The translations under genes and the position numbers were made by a program. From a virus (Duplodnaviria; Heunggongvirae; Uroviricota; Caudoviricetes), in IMG/VR virus record IMGVR_UViG_2695420540_000010: 11,545 bases of DNA; one strand, 5' to 3'. The notes beneath the pieces were generated by a model, which did no database searches, was not told where the DNA came from, and saw only the letters and a list, made by a program, of their open reading frames with translations. Of this stretch, positions 1 to 11,545 are shown piece by piece. Position 1 is the stretch's first letter. Each line of letters starts with the position of its first letter.

Positions 1-116
1 TGGTAGTGTCCGCTATTGCCAGTACACCTCAGGGTATAAGGGGTTATGGCCACCGGACTACCAAACGGCTGCCAGCCCTCTTTCAGTTTATGTGTCAGCT
101 TTTCCGCAAGATCTGA
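1..116 (+). pseudogene. Truncated 5' fragment of a paralog of the 76-aa ORF at 11315..11545 (start codon lies just outside the window)
   Basis: Frame 3 reads VVSAIASTPQGIRG... to a TGA at 114-116. The first 10 codons match the N-terminus MVVSAIASTP of the ORF at the opposite end, then diverge. Bases 1-31 are the exact reverse complement of 11514-11544. Confidence 0.3.
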
Positions 117-418
117 CGGCGGCGCCGCCCTGACAACATCATAGTGTTTAAATGCCATGGTTCTTTCCACCATCTGAAAAATAATTCTTTAAAATACCTG
201 ACATGTAATACAGAAAAAACACAAAACCATACCTTAAATAAAAACCTGATTATCAAGCAGATATGCATGGATAAACTACAAGACGAGATATAAACCACCC
301 TGCATTTAAATAAACAATAAACAACATCAGAAAAATAATTCTGCTCTATGGTTTACATTCAAAAATATCATTTATACTTTTCAGAACATCACCAGCAAGG
401 CATAAACAAGGAAACTAA

Positions 419-754
419 ATGAAGTGGATTGTGATTGATACAGTTATCCAGCCATCATGCGGAATATCTTTTTCAGTCATATGGAGTAAAATAAAATTAA
501 TAATCTGGTATCAATCGGATGCTTTCTTACCTCCTGAAAGTATATTTACACTGACTCACACAGGCATCATGCTCAATAACAAAGTGCTACCTGTAACCAT
601 TTACAACGTAGTACCATTCAATAAAACATTCTGGAATTCAATCAAAAATAGCCAGGAATGCCCTACAAATACAGATAACGTATTGAATGAATGCTTTAAT
701 AACCGTTGCACTCTGCAAATATGTCCTTATGGACTAAAACAACAAAGTCCATAA
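419..754 (+). CDS. Hypothetical 111-aa protein in an AT-rich island, opposite in orientation to the rest of the region; possible moron/cargo gene
   Basis: ATG start with AGGA about 8 nt upstream (acaaggaaactaaATG). Local GC roughly 32-38% by hand count of two lines, against about 50% elsewhere. Five Cys residues. No family recognised. Confidence 0.4.
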
Positions 755-790
755 GGAGTTTACTCACATCTGACAAAATCAATATAAACA

Positions 791-1010
791 GCCCCTCCGG
801 AGAGGGGCTGGAGAGTGGCGCTATGTGCCATTGCATGGTGCCGGGTGCCTCCCGGTGAATTCAGTACCAGCACCTGAATCCGCGATTATCCCATATACCT
901 ACTCGCTGATTGCCCCTCCGCACAGGGGGATTCACCATGCCAGTTTCTTTTAACAAACTCCCCGCAAACCAGACAACAGTCAACCGCCTGAATTGTGAAG
1001 TATTTAAAAA
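791..1010. repeat. Copy A of a ~220-bp repeat (near-identical to copy C at 2414..2635)
   Basis: Direct comparison: the sequence from gcccctccggagagggg through ggtgccgggtgcctcccggtgaattcag and cccctccgcacagggggattcaccatgcc to tttaaaaa recurs with only a few substitutions. Confidence 0.85.
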
Positions 1011-1201
1011 TTTCTCCCGCTAACTGATACCCGGCTAACAGTCTGGCGTTTTCTTTTTCAGCAACGGGAAAGCAACAACCACCACACCCGCCACCAGCAC
1101 ACCGTCAGCCAGCACTGACATTATCCGGCTGCTGCAATGCCATTCACAAAAACAGTAAGCAATCACTTTTTACCGTAACAGGTGATAATCCAGATATGTA
1201 T

Positions 1202-1528
1202 CTACCCCAGATGAGTAATCCGAAGTTCATCCATACCACAGGTCCTGGCTATTCTGTTGTACTCCTGAACAAGAGCAAATAATTCTGAATTAGCAACCAT
1301 GAACTCATCGCAAACCCTCTGTATAGCATCACTATTCAGAATAATAACGTCTCTTCCCGAAAGACGATCAGGAGTACAGAACAAAACTGTCAAACGGCTG
1401 AAGGCCTTTGCTCGTGCTGCATTGACTATATCAATACGCTGCCTAAGGATGAAACACCCCGACGCCTCATCAATATTCACTCTACCCACACCATATGAAT
1501 GATAAATATTTAATGCTGAAAAAACCAT
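1202..1528 (-). CDS. Hypothetical protein (108 aa from the ATG; the track ORF extends to a TTG at 1555)
   Basis: Open frame on the late-transcription strand between the tRNA-Arg copy and repeat A. No convincing Shine-Dalgarno for either start and no recognised family. Confidence 0.3.
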   Translation of the reverse strand: MVFSALNIYHSYGVGRVNIDEASGCFILRQRIDIVNAARAKAFSRLTVLFCTPDRLSGRDVIILNSDAIQRVCDEFMVANSELFALVQEYNRIARTCGMDELRITHLG

Positions 1529-1665
1529 TAGACCGTATAACAAACACTCAATCAATACTTAACAGAACTTTTATTTTTGACAAACATAAAATATTTTCAA
1601 CAATATCCTGAGCCAGGTATATTTCAGTATAAGGCTCTGCCGGAAGGAATCTGGAAGAATGAATA

Positions 1666-1742
1666 TGGCGCGCTGTACTGGATTCGAACCAGTGACCGAT
1701 TGCTTAGAAGGCAATTGCTCTGTCCGGCTGAGCTAACAACGC
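1666..1742 (-). tRNA. argO: tRNA-Arg (anticodon UCU), second copy, beside a scaffold gap
   Basis: Reverse complement folds as a 77-nt cloverleaf: acceptor GCGTTGT, D-stem GCTC/GAGC, anticodon stem ATTGC/GCAAT with loop CTTCTAA, T-arm ACTGG-TTCGAAT-CCAGT, encoded CCA. Differs from the copy at 2668..2744 by one base (1673), giving a G-U pair at 4:69. Confidence 0.8.
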
Positions 1743-1885
1743 TGAATACCGATNNNNNNNNNNNNNNNNNNNNNNNNNNNNNNNNNNNNNNNNNNNNNNN
1801 NNNNNNNNNNNNNNNNNNNNNNNNNNNNNNNNNNNNNNNNNGCCAGCTGAAATATTACTTCACGTTTTATTGTTTATTCCTTGCC

Positions 1886-1914
1886 GCCCGCGTCTCCCAG
1901 CGCGGGCTTTTTTT
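1886..1914 (+). terminator. Rho-independent terminator on the plus strand
   Basis: 7-bp GC stem gcccgcg/cgcgggc with loop tctcccag, followed by seven T (1908-1914). Confidence 0.55.
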
Positions 1915-1918
1915 GCCC

Positions 1919-1944
1919 ACAAGAAAACCCCTCCGGAGAGGGGC
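1919..1944 (-). terminator. Candidate intrinsic terminator on the minus strand (hairpin at the start of repeat copy B)
   Basis: Palindrome cccctccggagagggg (6-bp GC stem, loop cgga) followed on the minus strand by ttttcttgtg. Confidence 0.4.
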
Positions 1945-2160
1945 TAAAGCCGCGTATCTGTATCATCATGCACATGGTGCCGGGTGCCTCCCGGTGAGTT
2001 CAGCCCGGTGCCACTAAACCCGCGTCATTCTCGTTTTGATAATCAGAGATTATACCGTCACCAGTCGCCCCTCCGCTCAGGGGGATTCACCATGCGAAAT
2101 TTTTTTAACAAATGCCCAGTCTGACAGGCAACTGTCAACTTACTGAATTGTGAGCAACAT
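1927..2160. repeat. Copy B of the ~220-bp repeat (divergent)
   Basis: Shares the blocks cccctccggagagggg, ggtgccgggtgcctcccggtga, cccctccgc.cagggggattcaccatgc and ctgaattgtga in the same order as copies A and C, with many substitutions and indels. Confidence 0.7.
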
Positions 2161-2189
2161 AGCATTTAACGGGGAACCTGTTTTCTGCA

Positions 2190-2218
2190 GTAAAAAGGCC
2201 CACCGGAGCGGATGGGCC
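2190..2218 (-). terminator. Candidate intrinsic terminator on the minus strand
   Basis: Hairpin ggccca-ccggagcgga-tgggcc followed on the minus strand by TTTTT (plus-strand A-run 2192-2196). Confidence 0.4.
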
Positions 2219-2405
2219 TGGAAGGATAGCGGTCATGTGATGCCGGTTTCCCGGTAACTCAGCACCGGTATCTGAGTCAACGTTTTCTCTACTGGGTCAT
2301 TTCCGATACGCCCTGCCTGCTGACAGGCTTTCATCACATCTGAAAATATAGCACCCTGACTGATACTGTAGTACCTAAGGTTCCAGAAACTGTGATGTAT
2401 CCGGC

Positions 2406-2430
2406 ACAGAAAAGCCCCTCCGGAGAGGGC
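2406..2430 (-). terminator. Candidate intrinsic terminator on the minus strand (hairpin at the start of repeat copy C)
   Basis: Near-palindrome gcccctccggagagggc followed on the minus strand by cttttctgtg. Confidence 0.35.
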
Positions 2431-2635
2431 TGGAGAGTGGCGCTATGTGCCATTGCATGATGCCGGGTGCCTCCCGGTGAATTCAGTACCAGCACCTGAA
2501 TCCGCGATTATCCCATATACCTACTCGCTGATTGCCCCTCCGCACAGGGGGATTCACCATGCCAGTTTCTTTTAACAAACTCCCCGCAAAACAGACAACT
2601 GTCAACCGTCTGAATTGTGAGACATTTAAAAAAAA
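2414..2635. repeat. Copy C of the ~220-bp repeat, immediately downstream (minus sense) of tRNA-Arg(UCU)
   Basis: Near-identical to copy A (791..1010) by direct comparison. Confidence 0.85.
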
Positions 2636-2667
2636 GGCCCGCAAAAGCGAGCCAGGGAAAATAAGTG

Positions 2668-2744
2668 TGGCGCGTTGTACTGGATTCGAACCAGTGACCG
2701 ATTGCTTAGAAGGCAATTGCTCTGTCCGGCTGAGCTAACAACGC
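2668..2744 (-). tRNA. argO: tRNA-Arg (anticodon UCU)
   Basis: 77-nt cloverleaf on the minus strand with a fully paired acceptor stem GCGTTGT/ACAACGC, anticodon loop CTTCTAA, T-loop TTCGAAT and encoded CCA. Confidence 0.88.
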
Positions 2745-2757
2745 ATGATGCAGATAA

Positions 2758-2834
2758 TGGACCGCCATCGGGGACTTGAACCCCGCGCAGCCAGCTTCGA
2801 AGGCTGGCGCTCTTTCCTGATGAGCTAATGGCGG
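2758..2834 (-). tRNA. argN: tRNA-Arg (anticodon read as UCG)
   Basis: 77-nt cloverleaf: acceptor CCGCCAT/ATGGCGG, D-stem GCTC/GAGC, anticodon stem CCAGC/GCTGG with loop CTTCGAA, T-arm CGGGG-TTCAAGT-CCCCG, discriminator U, encoded CCA. The argN name rests on its position in an ileZ-argN-argO-type trio. Confidence 0.8.
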
Positions 2835-2841
2835 TATGTGA

Positions 2842-2917
2842 TGGTGGCCCTTGCTGGATTTGAACCAGCGACCTGGCGATTATGAGTCGCTCGCTCTCAC
2901 CACTGAGCTAAAGGGCC
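2842..2917 (-). tRNA. ileZ: tRNA with anticodon CAU, most likely tRNA-Ile2 (lysidine type) rather than tRNA-Met
   Basis: 76-nt cloverleaf GGCCCTTTAGCTCAGTGGTGAGAGCGAGCGACTCATAATCGCCAGGTCGCTGGTTCAAATCCAGCAAGGGCCACCA. Closely resembles the E. coli ileX/ileY tRNA-Ile(CAU) sequence as I recall it. Confidence 0.8.
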
Positions 2918-2957
2918 GGGAGCCGCATAATAACGACGCGTAATTAATTCTTCAATA

Positions 2958-4016
2958 TCATCCGTTCTGGCTGACTAAATCCTGTACTTCCCGAACCGTC
3001 TGCTCAAAACGTTCAGTCTCCAGCTCAACGCCAATTGCACGACGCCCGAGCGCCAGTGCCGCTTTCACTGTCGAACCCAACCCCATGAAAAAATCTGCAA
3101 TCAGGTCACCCGGACGACTGCTAGCGCTGATTATCTGCTGCAGCATTTCTGCCGGTTTTTCGCACGGATGTTTCCCGGGATAGAACTGCACCGGTTTATG
3201 CGTCCACACATCGGTATACGGCACCTGCACCGTCACGCCAAAATACCGCCGCAGATGTTTATATTCACTCAGCAGCTCCGCATACTGCCGGTTCAGTGAG
3301 GTATACGTATCCACCAGCTGGTGGTGGAGCTTTTCCAGTTCACCACGCCGATGCTTCTCTTCTGCCACCCGGGCAAACAGCGCCTGTAATTTCAGATAAT
3401 CGCTTTCATTCGGCAACTGCCACTGACCGGCACTGAACCAGTGCGACACCATGTTTTTCTTTCCTGTGGCATCTGCAATCTGTTTTGCCGTTATCCCCAG
3501 GGCAGCTCGCGCATCACGAAAGTAAGAAATCAGCGGGGCCATCACATGCTGTTTCAGTGCACTGCCCTTCGCCGCATACCCGGCATCTTTCGGACGATAC
3601 GGCCCCTGATAATGTTCCGCGAACAGAATGCGCTCTGTGGCGGGGAAATACGCCCGCAGGCTTTCCTTGTTGCATCCGTTCCAGCGTCCGGACGGCTTCG
3701 CCCAGATAATATGGTTCAGCACACTGAAGCGTTCACGCATCATGATTTCGATATCAGATGCCAGGCGATGACCACAGAACAGGTAAAGACTTCCGGCAGG
3801 TTTCAGCACCCGCCAGAACTGCGCCAGACACTGGTCCAGCCACTTCAGGTAATCATCGTCGCCCTTCCACTGGTTATCCCAGCCCTCAGGCTTCACTTTA
3901 AAGTACGGCGGGTCCGTGACTATCAGGTCAACAGAATTTTCGGGTAACGACCGGATAAATTCCAGGCAGTCGGCGTTGATTAACTCACAACTGGATATTT
4001 TTACAGTATTAAGCAT
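2958..4016 (-). CDS. DNA methyltransferase, beta-class amino-methyltransferase (N6-adenine or N4-cytosine), apparently orphan
   Basis: 352 aa. Motif IV DPPY near the N-terminus (IVTDPPYF) and the SAM-binding FxGxG motif I near the C-terminus (DFFMGLGST), the circular-permuted order of beta-class enzymes. No restriction endonuclease candidate nearby. Confidence 0.8.
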   Translation of the reverse strand: MLNTVKISSCELINADCLEFIRSLPENSVDLIVTDPPYFKVKPEGWDNQWKGDDDYLKWLDQCLAQFWRVLKPAGSLYLFCGHRLASDIEIMMRERFSVLNHIIWAKPSGRWNGCNKESLRAYFPATERILFAEHYQGPYRPKDAGYAAKGSALKQHVMAPLISYFRDARAALGITAKQIADATGKKNMVSHWFSAGQWQLPNESDYLKLQALFARVAEEKHRRGELEKLHHQLVDTYTSLNRQYAELLSEYKHLRRYFGVTVQVPYTDVWTHKPVQFYPGKHPCEKPAEMLQQIISASSRPGDLIADFFMGLGSTVKAALALGRRAIGVELETERFEQTVREVQDLVSQNG

Positions 4017-4163
4017 GGATCATTAAGCCTGTCTCTGATAGGCTCATTCTGCTTTTGCGCAAAGCAGTGGGCCTGAGGTTTGCTTGTGAACCCAACGCAT
4101 GAGCAGATGGCTGGTGGGTGNNNNNNNNNNNNNNNNNNCCCCCACCAGCCGCCCATTTACCAC

Positions 4164-4191
4164 AAATAAAAAAGCCTTCACTGCGGAAGGC
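4164..4191 (-). terminator. Candidate intrinsic terminator on the minus strand, overlapping the stop of the 65-aa ORF
   Basis: Hairpin gccttc-actgcg-gaaggc followed on the minus strand by ttttttatttg. Confidence 0.45.
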
Positions 4192-4375
4192 GTCTGTAAC
4201 AACCGAACTGATAGTCTGCCAGACCCGCCATAACCAGCTGGGTCAGTATTAACTGGCAGCGTTCGCGTGAAAGGTAAGTATTCTGCGCTATCTCCCCGAC
4301 TGTCGCCGGTTCGGTAACGCTTAATTCATTAAACACCACTCTGGCGGTTTCTGTCATATCCTGCTGTTTTAGCAT
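4178..4375 (-). CDS. Small (65 aa) putative helix-turn-helix DNA-binding protein
   Basis: ATG start with GGAAAA about 5 nt upstream. Segment TVGEIAQNTYLSRERCQLILTQL looks like a helix-turn-helix. Sits between the Q candidate and the methyltransferase. Confidence 0.5.
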   Translation of the reverse strand: MLKQQDMTETARVVFNELSVTEPATVGEIAQNTYLSRERCQLILTQLVMAGLADYQFGCYRRLPQ

Positions 4376-4495
4376 GTCTTTTCCTTTTCCGGTTAACGTG
4401 ACACACCAATAACTCTTGTCGAAAAAGCCAGCAAGCTGAAAGACAGGTATTCACCGCCACCAGCGCGTTTACTGTACTGACGCGATTTCAGTCAT

Positions 4496-4517
4496 AAAAA
4501 ACCCGCTCGGCGGCGGG
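4496..4517 (-). terminator. Intrinsic terminator about 40 bp downstream of the Q-like gene; candidate tR'-type site
   Basis: Minus strand reads cccgc-cgccga-gcggg followed by TTTTTT. Confidence 0.5.
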
Positions 4518-4558
4518 TTGTAGAAACTCTTCTAACGTCAGGCATAAAACGCCCATCG

Positions 4559-5314
4559 TTATGACGAATTTACCACAGATTCCGGAAAAATCAACCTAGT
4601 TACCTTTTTTAACTGCCGCTCAGCCCATGCTTCTTCAATATCAAACCGGGTCACCAGCGCATCATAAAATTTCTTAACTGTTTTTTCCCATGACGCGCGT
4701 GTTATCTGGTTTGTCACCTCGCATATAGCATTAAATGCCTCCGTTGATGGTAGTCTTTCATAGCCACGACCACCACAACGCTGGCAGTCTCTGATAACAG
4801 GCATACCACGTTTTACCGACTCTTCACGATGAATGGCGACACCACGCCCACGGCAATCCTTACAGGCGGTGGAAACCTCACCCTTTCCGCCACACTCCGG
4901 ACAGGCAACTTTTACCACCTCCCTGACTTTTTTCCATTCTTCCCAGTAAGACGGATACACACCTTTCGTACACTTTGCCCATACCGGCGGCTTACCATCC
5001 GGATACTGGATCTTGTTTGTAAAAACCTCGCTTTCAATAAATTTTTTTCCGTGACAGCAGGGGCACTGTTTTTTGCTCGCCGCGCTACGGGCATAATCTT
5101 CAAACGCATACGAAGCCATAATACGCATCACTGCCGGTTTTATTTCTGCCGGGAGTTTTCTTAACGCCGCCACGCGATCACACCGACTGAGTGCATATTC
5201 TGTCAGCAATTCTGTTGCCCGCTCTCTGTCATTCATACTAATGCCCATTTTCCCAAGGAACGCAGAAACCCCCATCTCAGCCCGATTCTGTGTCATGCCC
5301 TGCGCGGCCATCAC
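4559..5314 (-). CDS. Putative late-gene antiterminator Q-family protein (QuuQ/YdfT-like) with DnaJ-type CxxCxGxG zinc-finger repeats
   Basis: 251 aa (GTG at 5314, ATG at 5311). Lies downstream of rusA and upstream of a terminator and the tRNA cluster, the Q position in lambdoid phages. Contains CPCCHGKK, CPECGGKG, CKDCRGRG and CQRCGGRG. Family assignment is from context and memory. Confidence 0.5.
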   Translation of the reverse strand: MMAAQGMTQNRAEMGVSAFLGKMGISMNDRERATELLTEYALSRCDRVAALRKLPAEIKPAVMRIMASYAFEDYARSAASKKQCPCCHGKKFIESEVFTNKIQYPDGKPPVWAKCTKGVYPSYWEEWKKVREVVKVACPECGGKGEVSTACKDCRGRGVAIHREESVKRGMPVIRDCQRCGGRGYERLPSTEAFNAICEVTNQITRASWEKTVKKFYDALVTRFDIEEAWAERQLKKVTRLIFPESVVNSS

Positions 5315-5754
5315 ATCAGTGATACTCAGCGCATCTTTCGACGTTGAGGCCGATGCATCAGTCAGGCCGGGGGATTTTGGGGAGTAGTATTTCGGTAAAT
5401 CTTCNNNNNNNNNNNNNNNNNNNNNNNNNNNNNNNNNNNNNNNNNNNNNNNNNNNNNNNNNNNNNNNNNNNNNNNNNNNNNNNNNNNNNNNNNNNNNNNN
5501 NNNNNNNNNNNNNNNNNNNNNNNATGCGCATCACTACCGGTTTTATTTCTGCCGGAAGTTTTCTCAACGCCGCCACACGATCGCACCGACTGAGTGNNNN
5601 NNNNNNNNNNNNNNNNNNNNNNNNNNNNNNNNNNNNNNNNNNNNNNNNNNNNNNNNNNNNNNNNNNNNNNNNNNNNNNNNNNNNNNNNNNNNNNNNNNNN
5701 NNNNNNNNNNNNNNNNNNNNNNNNNNNNNNNNNNNNNNNNNNNNNNNNNNNNNN

Positions 5755-6097
5755 GGTAAATCTTCACCCCCAGACGTCCACCAGATACTGGCTGACCACG
5801 AACGATATTGATTTCATCAAACTGCTCATCGTCCATTAACACTCCCGCATGTGTCAGTGCATCCAGTGGTGCTTTCAGGATATTGTCCAGGTCACGACGG
5901 CGCTTATCCGGTGGCTCTGCAATAATCTTTATCGCCAGTCTTCCGGACAGGCTTAATTTCAGTCGCTGCTGACGGACAATAAGCGCCACATCCCGGCGAT
6001 AACGCTCACCGGCTTTTGATACAAAATATGTGTTGTCACGACGTCGCCAGTAAGTATTCACCGTCGGCGGATAAGGTAAAATAAACTCATGGCGCAT
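5755..6097 (-). CDS. rusA: Holliday-junction resolvase RusA (3' end lost in an N-run)
   Basis: N-terminus MRHEFILPYPPTVNTYWRRR and the motif PPDKRRRDLDN match the RusA family (E. coli RusA has PDRRRRDLDN). Start overlaps the upstream stop as TGATG. Confidence 0.75.
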
Positions 6098-6339
6098 CAG
6101 CGCAGCACCTCCTGCACCAGTTTTTCAAACTTTCCGACTCTGGTTTCCAGCTCTGCCACACAGTCCACCAGCTCATCTACTGCTTTCTGTGCGCGATGCT
6201 TCGCCTGCATCAGTTCCCGAAGCGCGGGTACCATATCTTTACGGATAGCGTCTTTTGTTATGCCCGTTTTTTCGAGTTGTTCAGCATGACGCAGCATTTC
6301 CTGCGCGTGTTTACGCAATTGTTCAGGGGTAAAAGTCAT
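6097..6339 (-). CDS. Hypothetical helical protein (80 aa from the ATG; track ORF starts at a TTG at 6354), translationally coupled to rusA
   Basis: Its stop overlaps the rusA start. Sequence is rich in E/K/R/L/A. No family recognised. Confidence 0.45.
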   Translation of the reverse strand: MTFTPEQLRKHAQEMLRHAEQLEKTGITKDAIRKDMVPALRELMQAKHRAQKAVDELVDCVAELETRVGKFEKLVQEVLR

Positions 6340-6565
6340 TGTCTGGTTGTTCAAAAGAAACGCTCCATCTTACTGCTGTCAGTTCGTTTATTACTGTATC
6401 TGCGCGGATTGCCGGGCTTCATGGGAGTGGAAAGCACCCGTGCACTTTCCTGGTCCACAGGCAGAAAATGTCCGTAGACTGGCCCCCTGAATCTCCAGAC
6501 AACCAGTATCACTTAAATAAGTGATAGTCTTAATACTAGTTTTTAGACTAGTCATTGGAGTACAG

Positions 6566-6679
6566 ATGATTGATGTCTTAGGGCCGGAGAAACGCAGACG
6601 GCGTACCACACAGGAAAAGATCGCAATTGTGTCAACGCCACGATGTTTGACCGTTATTTGCCATTTTCATGCCCGCTAA
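6566..6679 (+). pseudogene. Truncated N-terminus of an IS66-family-type transposase accessory gene (tnpA/orf1-like), interrupted after about 22 codons
   Basis: GGAG precedes the [25 protein letters not shown] fits the GPERRRRW-EEK-IV N-terminal pattern I associate with IS66-family orf1. The frame then degenerates and stops where the IS21-type sequence begins. Confidence 0.4.
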
Positions 6680-6688
6680 ATACTTTCG

Positions 6689-8245
<1,557 letters not shown>

Positions 8246-8260
8246 NNNNNNNNNNNNNNN

Positions 8261-8462
8261 GCTTATCCGGTGGTTCTGCAATAATTTTTATTGCCAACCT
8301 TCCGGACAGGCTTAATTTCAGCCGCTGCTGGCGAACAATAAGCGCCACTGCCCGGCGATAACGCTCCCCGGCTTTTGATACAAAATATGTGCTGCCACGA
8401 CGACGCCAGTAAGTGTTCACCGTCGGCGGGTAAGGTAAAACAAATTCTATGCGCTCGGTCAT
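8261..8462 (-). pseudogene. rusA: Second rusA copy, N-terminal 67 codons only, cut off by the N-run next to the IS21 element
   Basis: MTERIEFVLPYPPTVNTYWRRRGSTYFVSKAGERYRR...IIAEPPDK. Roughly 90% nucleotide identity to 5886-6097 by eye. Its ATG directly follows the upstream stop (TAAATG). Confidence 0.6.
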
Positions 8463-9521
8463 TTATGCTTTCCACTTCAGAACACCCGAATTTCTCGCGT
8501 GCATTAAAAAACGAATCAGCAACAACAGCTGACTGCCGTGTTTCTCTTCAAAATCTTTTACTCCGGCATGTAGTTCGTTACGGCATTTACGGCATAACGG
8601 AATAACAAACAAATCATCAGCCTTTGTTCCCATCCCTCCCAGTCCATGACCAATGATGTGATGCGGATCATCTGCCTGATTGCCACACGTCATGCATTTC
8701 TGCGTTTTTACCCAGCGCGTGTATACAGGCATCTCTTCCCGTTGTGATTTCTGGCGCTGGAGATACTGAGCCGGTGACTCCGGATCAACGGCAATGCTGA
8801 CCACCGTCTTTTCCTGTGGTGGGTTCTGTTGCTGGTGGACGTGAGGCAGTAACGCAATATTTTTTGTGCGCTGCTTCAGTATGCTGGTGGCTGTCTGCTC
8901 TCCCGGTATGATGTCGCTTTCACTGTACACAGAGCGAATTTTTTCCGCACGCAACCCCAGCGAACGACGTAATACCGCTTCCGGTAGCGCGTCCGCCACC
9001 TGATTGCGGACCGCCCACCAGGATAATTCAGCCAGAGATAATTCACGCTCCTGCGTACCGCTTATTGCGTGACCGATGACGTCAATCATCCATGCTGACA
9101 GGTTTTGATGAGCAAGTTGCTCGAGTGATTCGGATGTCTGGTCACGCAGCTGGTTGTCGCAGTGCCAGCACAACACCATTGCGCCGGTACCATAACGGTG
9201 AATGACGGTTTCGCTGTGATGATAATCGCCGTGTGGCCACTGGCAGGATTTAATATGGCGCAACAGCCAGTCAGACAATGCACCAGCACCACCAGCAGCA
9301 CGAATCACCCGTGCGTTACTGAAAAACGGCAGCAATGTTTTGTCTTCCACCAGCGGCTGGCGAGCGGCAGGAACGACCCCGGACGGCAGATTACGCATGC
9401 TTTTTGGTTCCGGCTCCACCAGTATTCTGCCGTTATGGAATGCTGACATTGATTCACGGCCTGGCTTAACGATAACCAGACCGAGTTCCGGTACCAGAAC
9501 AGGTCGAAGTAATACCCGCAC
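8463..9521 (-). CDS. Phage nin-region protein with a C-terminal HNH endonuclease motif (possibly YdfU/DUF968-like)
   Basis: 352 aa from a GTG with GGAGG 4 nt upstream (alternative ATG 24 codons in). C-terminus CMTCGNQADDPHHIIGH...LCRKCRNELH fits CxxC...D.HH...CxxC.N..H. The DUF968 assignment is from memory. Confidence 0.6.
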   Translation of the reverse strand: MRVLLRPVLVPELGLVIVKPGRESMSAFHNGRILVEPEPKSMRNLPSGVVPAARQPLVEDKTLLPFFSNARVIRAAGGAGALSDWLLRHIKSCQWPHGDYHHSETVIHRYGTGAMVLCWHCDNQLRDQTSESLEQLAHQNLSAWMIDVIGHAISGTQERELSLAELSWWAVRNQVADALPEAVLRRSLGLRAEKIRSVYSESDIIPGEQTATSILKQRTKNIALLPHVHQQQNPPQEKTVVSIAVDPESPAQYLQRQKSQREEMPVYTRWVKTQKCMTCGNQADDPHHIIGHGLGGMGTKADDLFVIPLCRKCRNELHAGVKDFEEKHGSQLLLLIRFLMHARNSGVLKWKA

Positions 9522-9522
9522 A

Positions 9523-9801
9523 TTACCTCCAGATCCGTTGCTGGAATGTGCGGGACGGACGCGTTGGCCGTTCGGAGTAAGGGAGCCTGACGGAGATTAT
9601 CCAGTGACGGTAGTCGAGGCTAAGGGCTTTTTTAACCTCGCATCCGCGCCTGCGGTAACACTGAATGAGCCATTCGGCCTGTTCTTCAGTGCATGGGGGA
9701 TGCTGGTACCAATCAGATTTAAATGCGTGAGAGCGCCGCCCGTGCCTGCTGGCAAAGACGGCTGAATTATCAGAATTGTGTAGTCTGGAATTTTGCGCCA
9801 T
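9523..9801 (-). CDS. Hypothetical 92-aa protein; may instead be the out-of-frame 5' part of the downstream HNH gene
   Basis: ATG with GGAG 7 nt upstream. Stop lies 1 nt before the GTG of the next gene, in a different frame. Confidence 0.4.
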   Translation of the reverse strand: MAQNSRLHNSDNSAVFASRHGRRSHAFKSDWYQHPPCTEEQAEWLIQCYRRRGCEVKKALSLDYRHWIISVRLPYSERPTRPSRTFQQRIWR

Positions 9802-9867
9802 CGGCTTTCTCCGGTGGCACAGTGTTACTCAACAGGGGTTCAGCCCTGCGCTGAATTGTAGATGAAT

Positions 9868-10128
9868 TCACTCATCTTCAAAAGCAGAAAAACCAGCCTT
9901 AATCCCAGCTTCTTTCAGAGACGGCAACGATGTGACAAATTCATTTGCACGCGAAATAAAACCATCCGTCACAAGCCCATCCACAAAATGAATTAACGCA
10001 GCTCCACTCTTCCTTTGTTGAGACTGTAAACATTTAATACGGCAGTGGCTGACAATAGCGCCATTCTCAACGCGCACAGTATAGAGGCCATCTTCACTAA
10101 AAATTTCACGTAATTCTTCGATTTTCAT
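9868..10128 (-). CDS. Hypothetical 86-aa protein
   Basis: ATG with GGAAGGA 8 nt upstream (the track ORF starts one codon earlier at a TTG). No family recognised. Confidence 0.5.
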   Translation of the reverse strand: MKIEELREIFSEDGLYTVRVENGAIVSHCRIKCLQSQQRKSGAALIHFVDGLVTDGFISRANEFVTSLPSLKEAGIKAGFSAFEDE

Positions 10129-10248
10129 CAACAGAATCCTTCCAGATAAATAGCACTCCCCTGTTCGGGGTCCATCCCTCTTCTCCCTGCGCGCTACTTA
10201 AGTATTTTTGATTCTATTCCGGCACCATCTAAAACTTCAAACGCGTTG

Positions 10249-10278
10249 AAAATAAAAACAAAAACCCGCCGAAGCGGG
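10249..10278 (-). terminator. Intrinsic terminator downstream of hok
   Basis: Minus strand reads cccgc-ttcg-gcggg followed by tttttgttttt. Confidence 0.6.
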
Positions 10279-10348
10279 TTAAGTGTGGGTGCATTGAGGA
10301 TGCCTGACCCATCAGAGGTGGCGAGGGATTTCTCCCCCGCCTGGTCTC

Positions 10349-10504
10349 TTACTCCTCAGGTTCGTAAGCTGTGAAGACAGCGACCTCCGTCTGGCCGGTT
10401 CGAATTCGTACCTCGCAGAGGTCTTTCCTCGTTACCAGTGCCGTCACTATGACGGTTAAACAGATGACGATCAGGGCGATTAACATCGCCTTTTGCTGCT
10501 TCAT
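10349..10504 (-). CDS. hokD: Hok/Gef-family type I toxin (HokD/RelF-like, 51 aa); the in-frame 70-aa extension to 10561 is a Mok-like frame
   Basis: MKQQKAMLIALIVICLTVIVTALVTRKDLCEVRIRTGQTEVAVFTAYEPEE matches the Hok family, and HokD as I recall it. AAGGAG lies 9 nt upstream. An upstream in-frame ATG at 10561 has its own GAGG. Confidence 0.85.
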   Translation of the reverse strand: MKQQKAMLIALIVICLTVIVTALVTRKDLCEVRIRTGQTEVAVFTAYEPEE

Positions 10505-10795
10505 AGCCTGCTTCTCCTTGCCTTTCGGCACGTAAGAGGCTAACCTAGATTTGCCGTTCATAGATTGAGCCTCAGATTAATGTTAAGCGTCTTGCCGGAC
10601 GCGTAATGTTAACTGGGGCTTTTCTCTATCTGCCTTTTGGTGTTCATGCCTGAGACAGATAGCCTCAAGCACCCGCTGCAATTCTACTTAACTCTCCTTT
10701 TCCCGCAAACCGTTTTTATCCCCAGCGGCAAATCGAATACACCACCAGCGCCACCGCCATCGCAATTCCTACCGTTGTTAATGCTTCAGGCCAGG

Positions 10796-11140
10796 TCATC
10801 GTAAAATATCCTCCACGCTTATCAGTCCGTTCCGCTCCAGATAACTCATCGCCTTATCCGGTAATTTGCAGTCTGGCTTCGCTTTCCTCAGTTGCCAGGT
10901 TAACTGCTTTACCAGCATGGTTAACTCATCGACCAGACGCTGATATCCCACTGGTTTGTATTCATGCAATTTACCGGCTGGCTCTGCTGCCAGCGATACC
11001 AGTGCGATTTCCAGAACAGCAATATCCATCTTATATGTGCGGATGATGTCATGGTCGATTGTGCCCGGTATGCACAGTCTCTGTGCTTCAATAGTCTCCT
11101 CTGCGTGAGCTATTAACTGCTCTCTGGTAAAAGTCGTCAT
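10796..11140 (-). CDS. Hypothetical 114-aa protein, paralogous in its N-terminal part to the upstream 55-aa ORF
   Basis: ATG overlaps the upstream stop (ATGA). Shares MTT.T.E and IAL.SL.AEP....EY with the 55-aa ORF. Confidence 0.55.
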
Positions 11141-11304
11141 GCCGTAGCCCCTTCTTGATATTTTTCAAACCAGAACACAACCGGCTCTGCTTCCAGCGAT
11201 GCCAGCGCAATCCGTGCCAGTTCCATTTGTTCACCACGGGTAAGCCCGTTTTCAAGCGGGTTTTTAATGAACAATTCAATACGTTCTTTGGTAATAGTGG
11301 TCAT
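11137..11304 (-). CDS. Hypothetical 55-aa protein (below the ORF-track length cutoff)
   Basis: Translated by hand: [61 protein letters not shown] lies 7 nt upstream of the ATG. Stop overlaps the next gene's start. Confidence 0.55.
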
Positions 11305-11314
11305 GTGTTACTCC

Positions 11315-11545
11315 TTAACCCGCAGTGCTTTCAACTGATGAGGGGAACAAAATCTTTTCATCAAACCCTGCATTCATATCATGAACAGCAACACACCAAT
11401 CCATCGACGAACGATTATCAAGAGCCTCCATGATTTCATCCATGCGGCGTAGGTCATACAGGTAAATGCTTTTATCGCCAATGGTGTAAAAGCCAATTTT
11501 TTTCGGTGATGGATGAGGTGTACTGGCAATAGCGGACACTACCAT
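11315..11545 (-). CDS. Hypothetical 76-aa protein whose start codon is the last three bases of the window
   Basis: ATG to TAA open frame, followed 10 nt later by the next gene with a strong SD. No family recognised. Confidence 0.5.
   Translation of the reverse strand: MVVSAIASTPHPSPKKIGFYTIGDKSIYLYDLRRMDEIMEALDNRSSMDWCVAVHDMNAGFDEKILFPSSVESTAG

What the first reader, a model, noticed from the sequence alone, without database searches (positions are those of the whole stretch)
1..11545. The two window ends are a perfect 31-bp inverted repeat, each the 5' end of an MVVSAIASTP ORF
Bases 1-31 equal the reverse complement of 11514-11544. On the right the repeat starts an intact 76-aa minus-strand ORF. 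On the left it starts a plus-strand frame that diverges after 10 codons and stops at 114. Both read inward. This could mark a recombination substrate for inversion, a junction created by a past inversion, or an assembly artifact such as a palindromic contig end.
Basis: seen in the sequence. Interest (0 to 1): 0.5.

Follow-up and report, generated by a model that had tools for sequence, protein, structure and literature searches.

The report
IS600 tips at scaffold ends
The matching 31-base ends are the outermost bases of two oppositely oriented copies of the common insertion sequence IS600, where a gapped Shigella sonnei draft scaffold stops, so this is an ordinary repeat boundary and not a new inversion switch.

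Summary
In detail: bases 1-31 are the exact reverse complement of 11514-11544, and shuffles give no such match. The repeat is the last 31-32 bp of the right terminal inverted repeat (IRR) of IS600, a 1264-bp IS3-family element. It occurs in 2666 of 5426 complete E. coli genomes.

Both window ends are IRR tips. Two inverted IS600 copies therefore lie just outside the window, with their IRR ends facing in.

"MVVSAIASTP" is the IS tip read outward from an ATG 32 nt from its end. On the right it replaces the first 22 codons of an 87-aa phage gene, giving the 76-aa ORF already annotated in S. sonnei. On the left it runs antisense into a truncated DUF1737 gene and is spurious.

The window is a gapped scaffold with five N runs. 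It interleaves pieces, each 100% identical to one or the other, of two paralogous lambdoid prophage remnants.

In a closed S. sonnei genome the two junctions lie 669.6 kb apart. Neither IS600 copy has the usual 3-bp target duplication. One closed genome (CP045932.1) carries the flank combination expected after recombination between these two copies.

The IS600 pair is thus a real inversion substrate, but the 11.5-kb unit is an assembly product. This is already known biology and of low interest.

The parts
1..31 (+). Last 31 bp of the right terminal inverted repeat (IRR) of an IS600 copy lying to the left of the window. The IS is oriented IRL to IRR on the + strand and ends ...CCTCA at base 31.
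   Evidence: Identical to the IRR end of full IS600 copies, L002 2501-2531 and 17 loci. In closed genomes L024-L028 this junction continues into a complete IS600.
11514..11545 (-). Last 32 bp of the IRR of a second IS600 copy lying to the right of the window, in the opposite orientation. It contains the ATG of the 76-aa ORF.
   Evidence: In L004-L013 the IS600 transposase gene (385 aa) ends 11 nt before this ATG.
11315..11545 (-). 76-aa fusion ORF. Residues 1-11 (MVVSAIASTPH) are encoded by the IS600 tip plus the junction. Residues 12-76 equal residues 23-87 of an intact 87-aa lambdoid nin-region protein.
   Evidence: BLASTP 65/65 identical to the L001 87-aa protein from residue 23. DNA homology to L001 stops at 11513. 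The exact protein is named Q3Z0Y9_SHISS, a prophage protein of Shigella sonnei, and is seen on 832 contigs.
1..116 (+). Spurious 38-codon frame whose ATG lacks its A at base 0. It is the IS600 tip read outward, antisense to the truncated DUF1737 gene, with stop TGA at 114-116.
   Evidence: Read directly. It is antisense to the DUF1737 reading frame.
32..158 (-). Truncated DUF1737 phage gene, codons 1-42, cut by IS600. In closed genomes it reads on into the IS as a 57- to 66-aa fusion.
   Evidence: Annotated DUF1737 in L001. Homology to L001 starts at 29-32. P0001 is 100% identical and named DUF1737 domain-containing protein [Shigella sonnei].
1..1753 (-). Scaffold piece from prophage remnant B: DUF1737', IraM (419-754, + strand) and tRNA-Arg(UCU) at 1666-1742.
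   Evidence: 100% identical to L024 and L028 10158-8406. Genes, tRNA.
1842..5404 (-). Two scaffold pieces (1842-4120 and 4139-5404) from prophage remnant A, next to ompW. They carry three tRNA genes, a DNA methyltransferase (2958-4016), a 65-aa ORF and the antiterminator Q gene.
   Evidence: 100% identical to L005 17029-14751. The second piece has 0 mismatches and one 8-nt gap against L005 14741-13470. Pfam families.
5524..8245 (-). Two scaffold pieces (5524-5596 and 5755-8245) from remnant B. They carry a Q fragment, rusA, an 85-aa ORF, an IS2 end fragment (6475-6634) and an IS21-family element (IstB 6689-7489, 3' part of IstA 7486-8245).
   Evidence: 100% identical to L026 7577-7505 and 7256-4766. 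Pfam IstB_IS21, rve and Mu-transpos_C_2.
8261..11513 (-). Scaffold piece from remnant A: rusA 5' part, DUF968, a 92-aa ORF, Rem, hok, a 114-aa ORF, a 55-aa ORF and the phage part of the 76-aa ORF.
   Evidence: 100% identical to L005 and L010 13285-10001. Pfam families.
1754..1841 (.). N run, an estimated scaffold gap, at a switch from remnant B to remnant A. The other N runs are 4121-4138 (within A, at a hairpin loop), 5405-5523 (A to B), 5597-5754 (within B) and 8246-8260 (B to A).
   Evidence: N lengths differ from the true lengths: 18 N against a 7-9 nt hairpin loop, and 158 N against 247 nt.

Best explanation
The 31-bp terminal inverted repeat is the outermost part of the right terminal inverted repeat (IRR) of insertion sequence IS600, a 1264-bp IS3-family element.

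The window is a short-read, N-gapped scaffold of a Shigella sonnei-type genome. At each end it stops about one k-mer (31-32 nt) inside an IS600 copy. Both ends show the same IRR end, so the two copies are inverted relative to each other with their transposase 3' ends pointing into the window.

The IS600 tip contains an ATG 32 nt from its end that reads outward as MVVSAIASTP. On the right this frame happens to be in phase with a phage gene that has lost its first 22 codons, which gives the 76-aa ORF. On the left it runs antisense into a truncated DUF1737 gene and stops after 38 codons.

The two junctions belong to two different paralogous lambdoid prophage remnants. Remnant A lies next to ompW and remnant B lies about 670 kb away in the same orientation. 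The scaffolder threaded contigs of both remnants into one 11.5-kb scaffold (inferred).

In the real chromosome the two inverted IS600 copies bound a segment of about 670 kb. They can invert it by homologous recombination, and one closed genome shows the exchanged flanks.
For: Shown:
- The 32-mer is present in 2666 of 5426 complete E. coli genomes, with up to 43 copies per genome, on chromosomes and plasmids.
- It lies at the end of elements that PGAP annotates as 'IS3-like element IS600 family transposase, programmed frameshift'.
- A full copy is 1264 bp. Its IRL is TGAGGTAGCCTGAG... and its IRR is TGAGGTGTACTGGC..., so the ends differ and both window ends are IRR.
- Homology to an uninterrupted E. 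coli prophage stops at 29-32 and at 11513.
- In 10 closed or near-closed genomes a complete IS600 precedes the 76-aa ORF. In 5 genomes a complete IS600 follows the DUF1737' fusion.
- Names from the sources are Shigella sonnei.
- The six window pieces between N runs are each 100% identical to remnant A or to remnant B. Three of the five N runs are A/B switches that are out of register, and the other two lie within one remnant.
- N lengths differ from the true lengths.
- In GCA_016613025.1 the A junction is at about 1,826,273 and the B junction at about 2,495,895, with the IRRs facing inward.
- Ordinary IS600 copies have 3-bp duplications (CGC, AAC, GGA). These two copies do not (TTT|TCC and TAG|GGG).
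- L012 (CP045932.1) equals the B outer flank plus IS600 (99.9% over 10,033 bp) joined to the A interior (99.97% over 11,463 bp).

Inferred: the scaffolder's route through collapsed paralogous sequence, and the k-mer explanation for the 31-32 nt overhang.
Against: The source assembly itself was not found. The left junction is absent from the species-representative genomes and from all complete E. coli genomes, so the reads behind the scaffold could not be inspected.

Some pieces contain exact A/B repeats of 39-343 nt. A simple de Bruijn assembler would not cross these, so the assembler must have used reads or read pairs, or the source strain lacks part of one remnant.

The overhang is 31 nt on one side and 32 nt on the other, which does not fit one simple k value.

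The inversion in CP045932.1 is inferred from one junction and from its coordinate (about 2.497 Mb). The reciprocal junction was not retrieved.
Confidence: 0.9

Rival explanations
1. The 11.5-kb mosaic is real in the source strain. In this reading, a recombinant prophage segment is bounded by two inverted IS600 copies 11.5 kb apart, forming a composite-transposon-like or IS-flanked invertible unit.
For: Closed genomes do contain a comparable real structure. In L005 and L010 a 10.1-kb stretch of remnant A lies between inverted IS600 copies with their IRRs facing inward (10002-10032 and 20108-20138). Pieces of the window cross exact A/B repeats of up to 343 nt. That would be easier if the source carried only one copy of those stretches.
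Against: All three A/B switches fall in N runs and are out of register, so both the A and the B versions of the Q and tRNA regions are present in series. N lengths do not match real sequence. No complete E. coli genome covers 80% or more of the window and none has either junction. In a closed S. sonnei genome the junctions are 669.6 kb apart. The 73-nt piece 5524-5596 looks like a leftover bubble arm of remnant B.
Confidence: 0.07
2. The repeat is a site-specific invertase switch of the Hin/Gin/Cin or shufflon type. In this reading, 31-bp inverted crossover sites exchange alternative 5' ends of an ORF.
For: The repeats are short, perfect and inverted, each starts an inward-reading frame, and the surroundings are a prophage.
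Against: The repeat is 100% the IS600 IRR and continues into full IS600 copies in every closed genome examined. No invertase gene lies in the window (and the Pfam tables). The left frame is antisense to a truncated gene and stops after 38 codons.
Confidence: 0.01
3. The repeat is a fold-back or palindromic contig-end artefact, in which the assembler copied one end of the contig in reverse onto the other.
For: The repeat sits exactly at both termini, and its length is close to a common k-mer size.
Against: Each junction exists independently in closed long-read genomes. The right junction is indexed in 795 blocks of the collection, 83 of which hold a contig longer than 1 Mb, and the left junction is on 7 contigs longer than 1 Mb. 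The repeated sequence is a known mobile-element end, not the contig's own unique sequence.
Confidence: 0.01

Closest known systems
IS600 (IS3 family insertion sequence of Shigella and E. coli)
   Same: The 31-32 nt at each window end are 100% identical to the IRR end of IS600. They start TG and end CA. In closed genomes the same junctions continue into a 1264-bp element with a frameshifted orfAB transposase.
   Different: Only the tips lie inside the window. The two copies concerned lack the 3-bp target duplication that ordinary copies show, which points to recombination between copies after insertion.
IS-mediated large chromosomal inversions in Shigella (homologous recombination between inverted IS copies)
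   Same: Two inverted IS600 copies bound a segment of about 670 kb, and one closed genome carries the exchanged flank combination. IS-flanked inversions among S. sonnei lineages are described in PMC12795559.
   Different: I did not find this particular pair named in the papers I read. The inverted state rests on one junction in one genome.
Repeat-collapse or chimeric scaffolding of paralogous lambdoid prophages in short-read assemblies
   Same: The N gaps do not match true lengths, and the switches between remnants are out of register and fall at gaps. The scaffold enters from the upstream flank of one copy and leaves by the downstream flank of the other.
   Different: The assembler and the reads are unknown. 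Some long exact repeats were crossed, so the process was not a plain unitig construction.
Phage-encoded DNA invertase switches (Gin/gix, Cin/cix, Pin, Hin/hix)
   Same: These also have short inverted repeats bounding a prophage segment, with frames reading inward.
   Different: Here there is no invertase gene, the repeat is an IS end, and there are no alternative functional gene ends.

Membership tests
IS600 / IS3 family insertion sequence | Terminal inverted repeats beginning 5'-TG and ending CA-3', with sequence identity to the IS600 ends | tested here: met
   Window 11514-11545 and the reverse complement of 1-31 equal the IRR of full IS600 copies (TGAGGTGTACTGGCAATAGCGGACACTACCAT), at 100% identity.
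IS600 / IS3 family insertion sequence | Element of about 1.2-1.5 kb encoding orfA and orfB, with a programmed -1 frameshift and a DDE (rve) transposase | tested here: met
   This was not testable inside the window, which holds only the tips. In closed genomes the same junctions continue into 1260-1265-bp elements. They carry a 385-aa (or 100 + 272 aa) transposase with HTH_Tnp_1 and rve domains, which PGAP annotates as 'IS600 family, programmed frameshift'.
IS600 / IS3 family insertion sequence | 3-bp direct target-site duplication flanking a simple insertion | tested here: not met
   Ordinary copies have one (CGC, AAC, GGA). The two copies at the window junctions do not (TTT|TCC and TAG|GGG). 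This does not argue against their identity as IS600. It indicates later recombination between copies.
Site-specific DNA inversion switch (serine invertase or shufflon type) | A recombinase gene adjacent to or within the invertible segment | tested here: not met
   No resolvase, invertase or integrase ORF lies in the window. The Pfam tables for the identical loci show none between the junctions.
Site-specific DNA inversion switch (serine invertase or shufflon type) | Short inverted crossover sites that are self-contained and not part of a longer repeat | tested here: not met
   The repeat extends outward into full 1264-bp IS600 copies in every closed genome examined.
Composite transposon (two IS copies mobilising the DNA between them) | Two complete IS copies a few kb apart that bound the same contiguous segment, with a target duplication at the outer ends | tested here: not met
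   In a closed genome the two junctions are 669.6 kb apart. The window interior is an interleaving of two loci at N gaps. The outer ends lie outside the window.
Fold-back or palindromic contig-end artefact | The terminal repeat is the contig's own unique sequence duplicated in reverse, with no independent support for the junctions | tested here: not met
   The repeat is a multicopy IS end, and both junctions are found independently in closed genomes.

The most novel reading that the evidence does not exclude
The two inverted IS600 copies whose tips end the window act as a recurrent, possibly reversible, chromosomal inversion of about 670 kb in Shigella sonnei. It runs from the ompW-side prophage remnant to a second prophage remnant. 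Both orientations would then circulate in the population and could affect replichore balance or gene expression. Nine of the ten closed genomes sampled show one flank combination and one (CP045932.1) shows the other.
Probability: 0.15. Interest if true: 0.3.

Novelty: already known. Interest (0 to 1): 0.08.

Why it matters
The main value is as a caution. A perfect inverted repeat of about one k-mer at both ends of a draft contig or scaffold signals that it stops in two inverted copies of a mobile element. ORFs that begin in such a tip are IS-derived fusions, not duplicated gene starts.

The case also shows that gapped scaffolds of IS-rich, multi-prophage genomes such as Shigella can splice two paralogous prophages into one apparent locus.

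The real biology behind it is IS600 copies without target duplications and an IS600-bounded segment of about 670 kb found in both flank configurations. This belongs to the well-documented IS-driven rearrangement of Shigella genomes and raises no new question.

Tried and rejected
1. I searched all complete E. coli genomes for each junction (90-nt queries). Neither junction is present. The single 99%-coverage hit (H41) is two pieces spread over 395 bp and is not a junction.

2. An exact scan of the species-representative genomes for the left junction found 0 matches, so the source contig was not identified.

3. A look-up of the 213-aa IstA fragment was meant to find the window's own configuration. 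It returned only generic IS21-family copies with a frameshifted IstA at unrelated loci, which was uninformative.

I reached it instead through a homology search, which gave P0001. P0001 is a 66-aa variant that probably owes its extra residues to a homopolymer-length difference in long-read assemblies, where the IS600 lengths are 1262-1263 bp.

5. I considered that the N runs were length-preserving masks over real sequence. I rejected this because 18 N stand for a 7-9 nt hairpin loop and 158 N stand for 247 nt.

6. I considered a deletion between the two directly repeated prophage remnants as a real event. I rejected it because it would remove about 660 kb of chromosome, and it would not explain the interleaved B-upstream piece (5755-8245).

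7. I tried to fit a single de Bruijn k to all piece boundaries. The overhangs are inconsistent (31, 32 and 35 nt), so the assembler remains unidentified.
Full report
**Observation**

Bases 1-31 (TGGTAGTGTCCGCTATTGCCAGTACACCTCA) are the exact reverse complement of 11514-11544. With up to three mismatches the 31-mer occurs only at these two places, and 200 dinucleotide-preserving shuffles gave no match. The minus-strand ORF 11315-11545 (76 aa) starts with the ATG formed by the last three window bases. The plus-strand frame at the left end lacks the A of its ATG and reaches TGA at 114-116.

**What the repeat is**

The whole window matches lambdoid prophages of E. coli. In the best matches, homology runs from base 29 to base 11513, so it stops at the inner edge of each repeat arm.

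The 32-mer itself is found in 2666 of 5426 complete E. coli genomes. The median is 1 copy per genome and the maximum 43, on chromosomes and plasmids, which is the signature of a mobile element. At two such places the 32-mer is the end of an element annotated 'IS3-like element IS600 family transposase, programmed frameshift'.

A complete copy (L002 2501-3764) is 1264 bp long and is flanked by a 3-bp duplication. The end next to the transposase stop codon (IRR) reads TGAGGTGTACTGGCAATAGCGGACACTACC. The other end (IRL) reads TGAGGTAGCCTGAGTTTAACGGACACTCC. The two ends differ within the first 31 nt, so both window ends are IRR ends. Two IS600 copies therefore lie just outside the window in opposite orientations, each with its IRR facing inward. 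IS600 is an IS3-family member that is amplified in Shigella and several STEC lineages (PMC9397093).

**The 'MVVSAIASTP' frames**

The IS600 tip contains an ATG 32 nt from its end, 11 nt after the transposase stop codon. Read outward it encodes MVVSAIASTP.

On the right this frame is in phase with a phage gene that has lost its 5' end. Residues 12-76 of the 76-aa ORF are 65/65 identical to residues 23-87 of the intact 87-aa protein of the reference prophage. The exact 76-aa protein is already in databases as a prophage protein of S. sonnei (UniRef Q3Z0Y9_SHISS) and is seen on 832 contigs.

On the left the same tip reads antisense into a DUF1737 gene that IS600 cut after codon 42. That frame stops after 38 codons and is spurious. 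The sense-strand product of the left junction, DUF1737 residues 1-42 fused to IS600-encoded residues, is also in databases as a S. sonnei protein (P0001).

**Both junctions are real, but they belong to different loci**

The exact 76-aa ORF is indexed in 795 blocks of the collection, 83 of which hold a contig longer than 1 Mb. In all ten places shown, a complete IS600 lies immediately upstream. I call this prophage remnant A. In most of these genomes it lies beside ompW.

The left fusion is carried by seven contigs longer than 1 Mb, again followed by a complete IS600. This is a second remnant, B, with the order IS2, IS21, an 85-aa gene, rusA, Q, IraM, DUF1737'.

In GCA_016613025.1 both junctions are on one 4.88-Mb contig. 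The A junction is at about 1,826,273 and the B junction at about 2,495,895. The two remnants have the same orientation, and the two IS600 copies are inverted with their IRRs facing inward. They bound 669.6 kb.

**The window is a chimeric, gapped scaffold**

I cut the window at its N runs and compared the pieces with the closed loci.

| Window piece | Source remnant | Identity |
|---|---|---|
| 1-1753 | B | 100% |
| 1842-4120 | A | 100% |
| 4139-5404 | A | 0 mismatches, one 8-nt gap |
| 5524-5596 | B | 100% |
| 5755-8245 | B | 100% |
| 8261-11545 | A | 100% |

Three of the five N runs are switches between A and B (1754-1841, 5405-5523, 8246-8260), and these switches are out of register. As a result, the A and B versions of the Q region (5121-5193 against 5524-5596) and of the tRNA region (805-1023 against 2427-2645, and two tRNA-Arg(UCU) genes) both appear in series.

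The N runs are not length-preserving masks. Eighteen N stand for the 7-9-nt loop of a 12-bp hairpin, and 158 N stand for 247 nt of remnant B.

Read on the minus strand, the scaffold enters from the unique upstream flank of A and leaves by the unique downstream flank of B, in the same order and orientation as in the chromosome. This is what one expects when an assembler collapses two directly repeated paralogous prophages and a scaffolder lines up the leftover pieces. That step is my inference. The assembler is unknown, and some pieces cross exact A/B repeats of 39-343 nt, so reads or read pairs must have been used.

No complete E. coli genome covers 80% or more of the window. None has either junction.

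**Mechanism and the inversion question**

Ordinary IS600 insertions in the fetched loci have 3-bp target duplications: CGC, AAC, and GGA for the extra copy present in L004-type genomes at window 2223-2227. The copy next to the 76-aa ORF has flanks TTT|TCC and the copy next to DUF1737' has TAG|GGG. Both copies have therefore exchanged flanks with other IS600 copies since insertion.

One closed genome gives direct evidence for exchange between these two copies. L012 (CP045932.1) consists of the outer flank of B plus IS600 (99.9% over 10,033 bp) joined to the interior of A (99.97% over 11,463 bp). It lies at about 2.497 Mb, where other genomes have the B junction. That is the product expected from homologous recombination between the inverted copies, which would invert the ~670-kb segment. 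I did not retrieve the reciprocal junction.

IS-flanked inversions that distinguish S. sonnei lineages are described in PMC12795559. It does not hold for a 31-bp site and an 11.5-kb segment.

**Alternatives**

- Site-specific invertase switch. This is excluded because the repeat is an IS end that continues into full IS copies and no recombinase gene is present.
- Fold-back contig artefact. This is excluded because both junctions occur independently in closed genomes.
- A real 11.5-kb IS600-bounded mosaic. This cannot be excluded completely without the source reads. Closed genomes L005 and L010 do contain a real 10.1-kb stretch of remnant A between inverted IS600 copies. However, this reading would need three non-homologous, out-of-register joints and two indels, each hidden exactly under an N run. 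I give it about 7%.

**Comparison with known systems and verdict**

The feature is the IRR of IS600, seen twice because a draft scaffold ends in two inverted copies. Everything about it falls under known kinds: the IS identity, gene truncation with an IS-derived start codon, loss of target duplications through recombination between IS copies, IS-bounded inversion, and mis-scaffolding of paralogous prophages. Novelty is 'already known' and interest is low (0.08).

The most novel reading left open is that this IS600 pair drives a recurrent ~670-kb inversion polymorphism in S. sonnei. I put its probability at about 0.15, with modest interest if true.

Noticed in passing
window 4109-4150: A GC-rich 12-bp stem hairpin (GGCTGGTGGGTG ... 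CACCCACCAGCC) lies between Q and the methyltransferase gene. Its loop is replaced by 18 N, whereas closed genomes have a 7-nt loop (CCCCTAA). The base next to the gap also differs (CC against CA). It looks like a de Bruijn-graph break at a palindrome.
   Followed up: partly
window 4559-4600 (L005 about 14270-14300): The window has one copy of an 8-nt tandem repeat (GTTACCT-) where closed S. sonnei genomes have two. The missing copy removes the stop codon of the Q antiterminator gene and extends it by 11 codons (VTR* becomes VTRLIFPESVVNSS*). This could be a strain variant or an assembly collapse.
   Followed up: partly
window 2223-2227; L004 16398-17661: This is an empty IS600 target site in the window. 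Most closed S. sonnei genomes examined (L004, L006-L009, L011-L013) carry an extra IS600 here with a clean GGA duplication, while L005 and L010 (CP032523.1, CP060117.1) do not. On this marker the source strain resembles the latter two.
   Followed up: partly
window 9791-10040: A 250-bp stretch carrying most of a Rem-family ORF (9868-10131, minus strand) is present in the window and in L005 and L010, but deleted in L004-type genomes.
   Followed up: no
window 6475-8245: A 160-bp IS2 end fragment (6475-6634) and an IS21-family element (IstB 6689-7489, 3' part of IstA 7486-8245) lie upstream of the 85-aa and rusA genes of remnant B. The scaffold piece ends inside IstA at a 16-nt palindrome (GCAAAGTTAACTTTGC). 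The same element occurs at many unrelated loci, often with a frameshifted IstA (177 + 213 aa).
   Followed up: partly
window 1666-1742, 2668-2744, 2758-2834, 2842-2917: There are four phage tRNA genes: Arg(UCU) twice, once from each remnant, then Arg(UCG) and a CAT-anticodon tRNA. ARAGORN calls the last one Met, while PGAP annotates a tRNA-Ile next to tRNA-Arg in the corresponding region of the reference prophage. This is the usual tRNA cluster between Q and the lysis genes of lambdoid and Stx-type phages.
   Followed up: no
L012 (CP045932.1 2487061-2507291) against L004 and L024: One closed S. sonnei genome has the outer flank of the remnant-B IS600 joined through IS600 to the interior of remnant A. 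This is the configuration expected after inversion of the ~670-kb segment between the two IS600 copies whose tips end the window.
   Followed up: partly
L005 10002-10032 and 20108-20138: In two closed genomes (L005, L010) a real 10.1-kb stretch of remnant A, running from the 76-aa gene to past the holin and DUF1327 genes, lies between inverted IS600 copies with their IRRs facing inward. A short-read contig of it would show the same terminal 31-bp inverted repeat as the window.
   Followed up: no
IS600 3' end (L002 2501-2545; window 11514-11545): The outward-reading ATG of the IS600 tip lies 11 nt after the transposase stop codon (TAAAAAAAGAACAAATG). The tip also contains TTGCCA, a -35-like hexamer facing outward. 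Any IS600 insertion could therefore supply a start codon, and possibly read-through or coupled translation, to a truncated downstream gene. No expression evidence was sought.
   Followed up: no
L024-L028 IS600 copies; P0001: IS600 copies in several long-read assemblies are 1260-1263 or 1265 bp instead of 1264 bp. The 66-aa form of the DUF1737'::IS600 fusion differs from the 57 aa predicted from a canonical IS600. These are most likely homopolymer-length errors in those assemblies.
   Followed up: no
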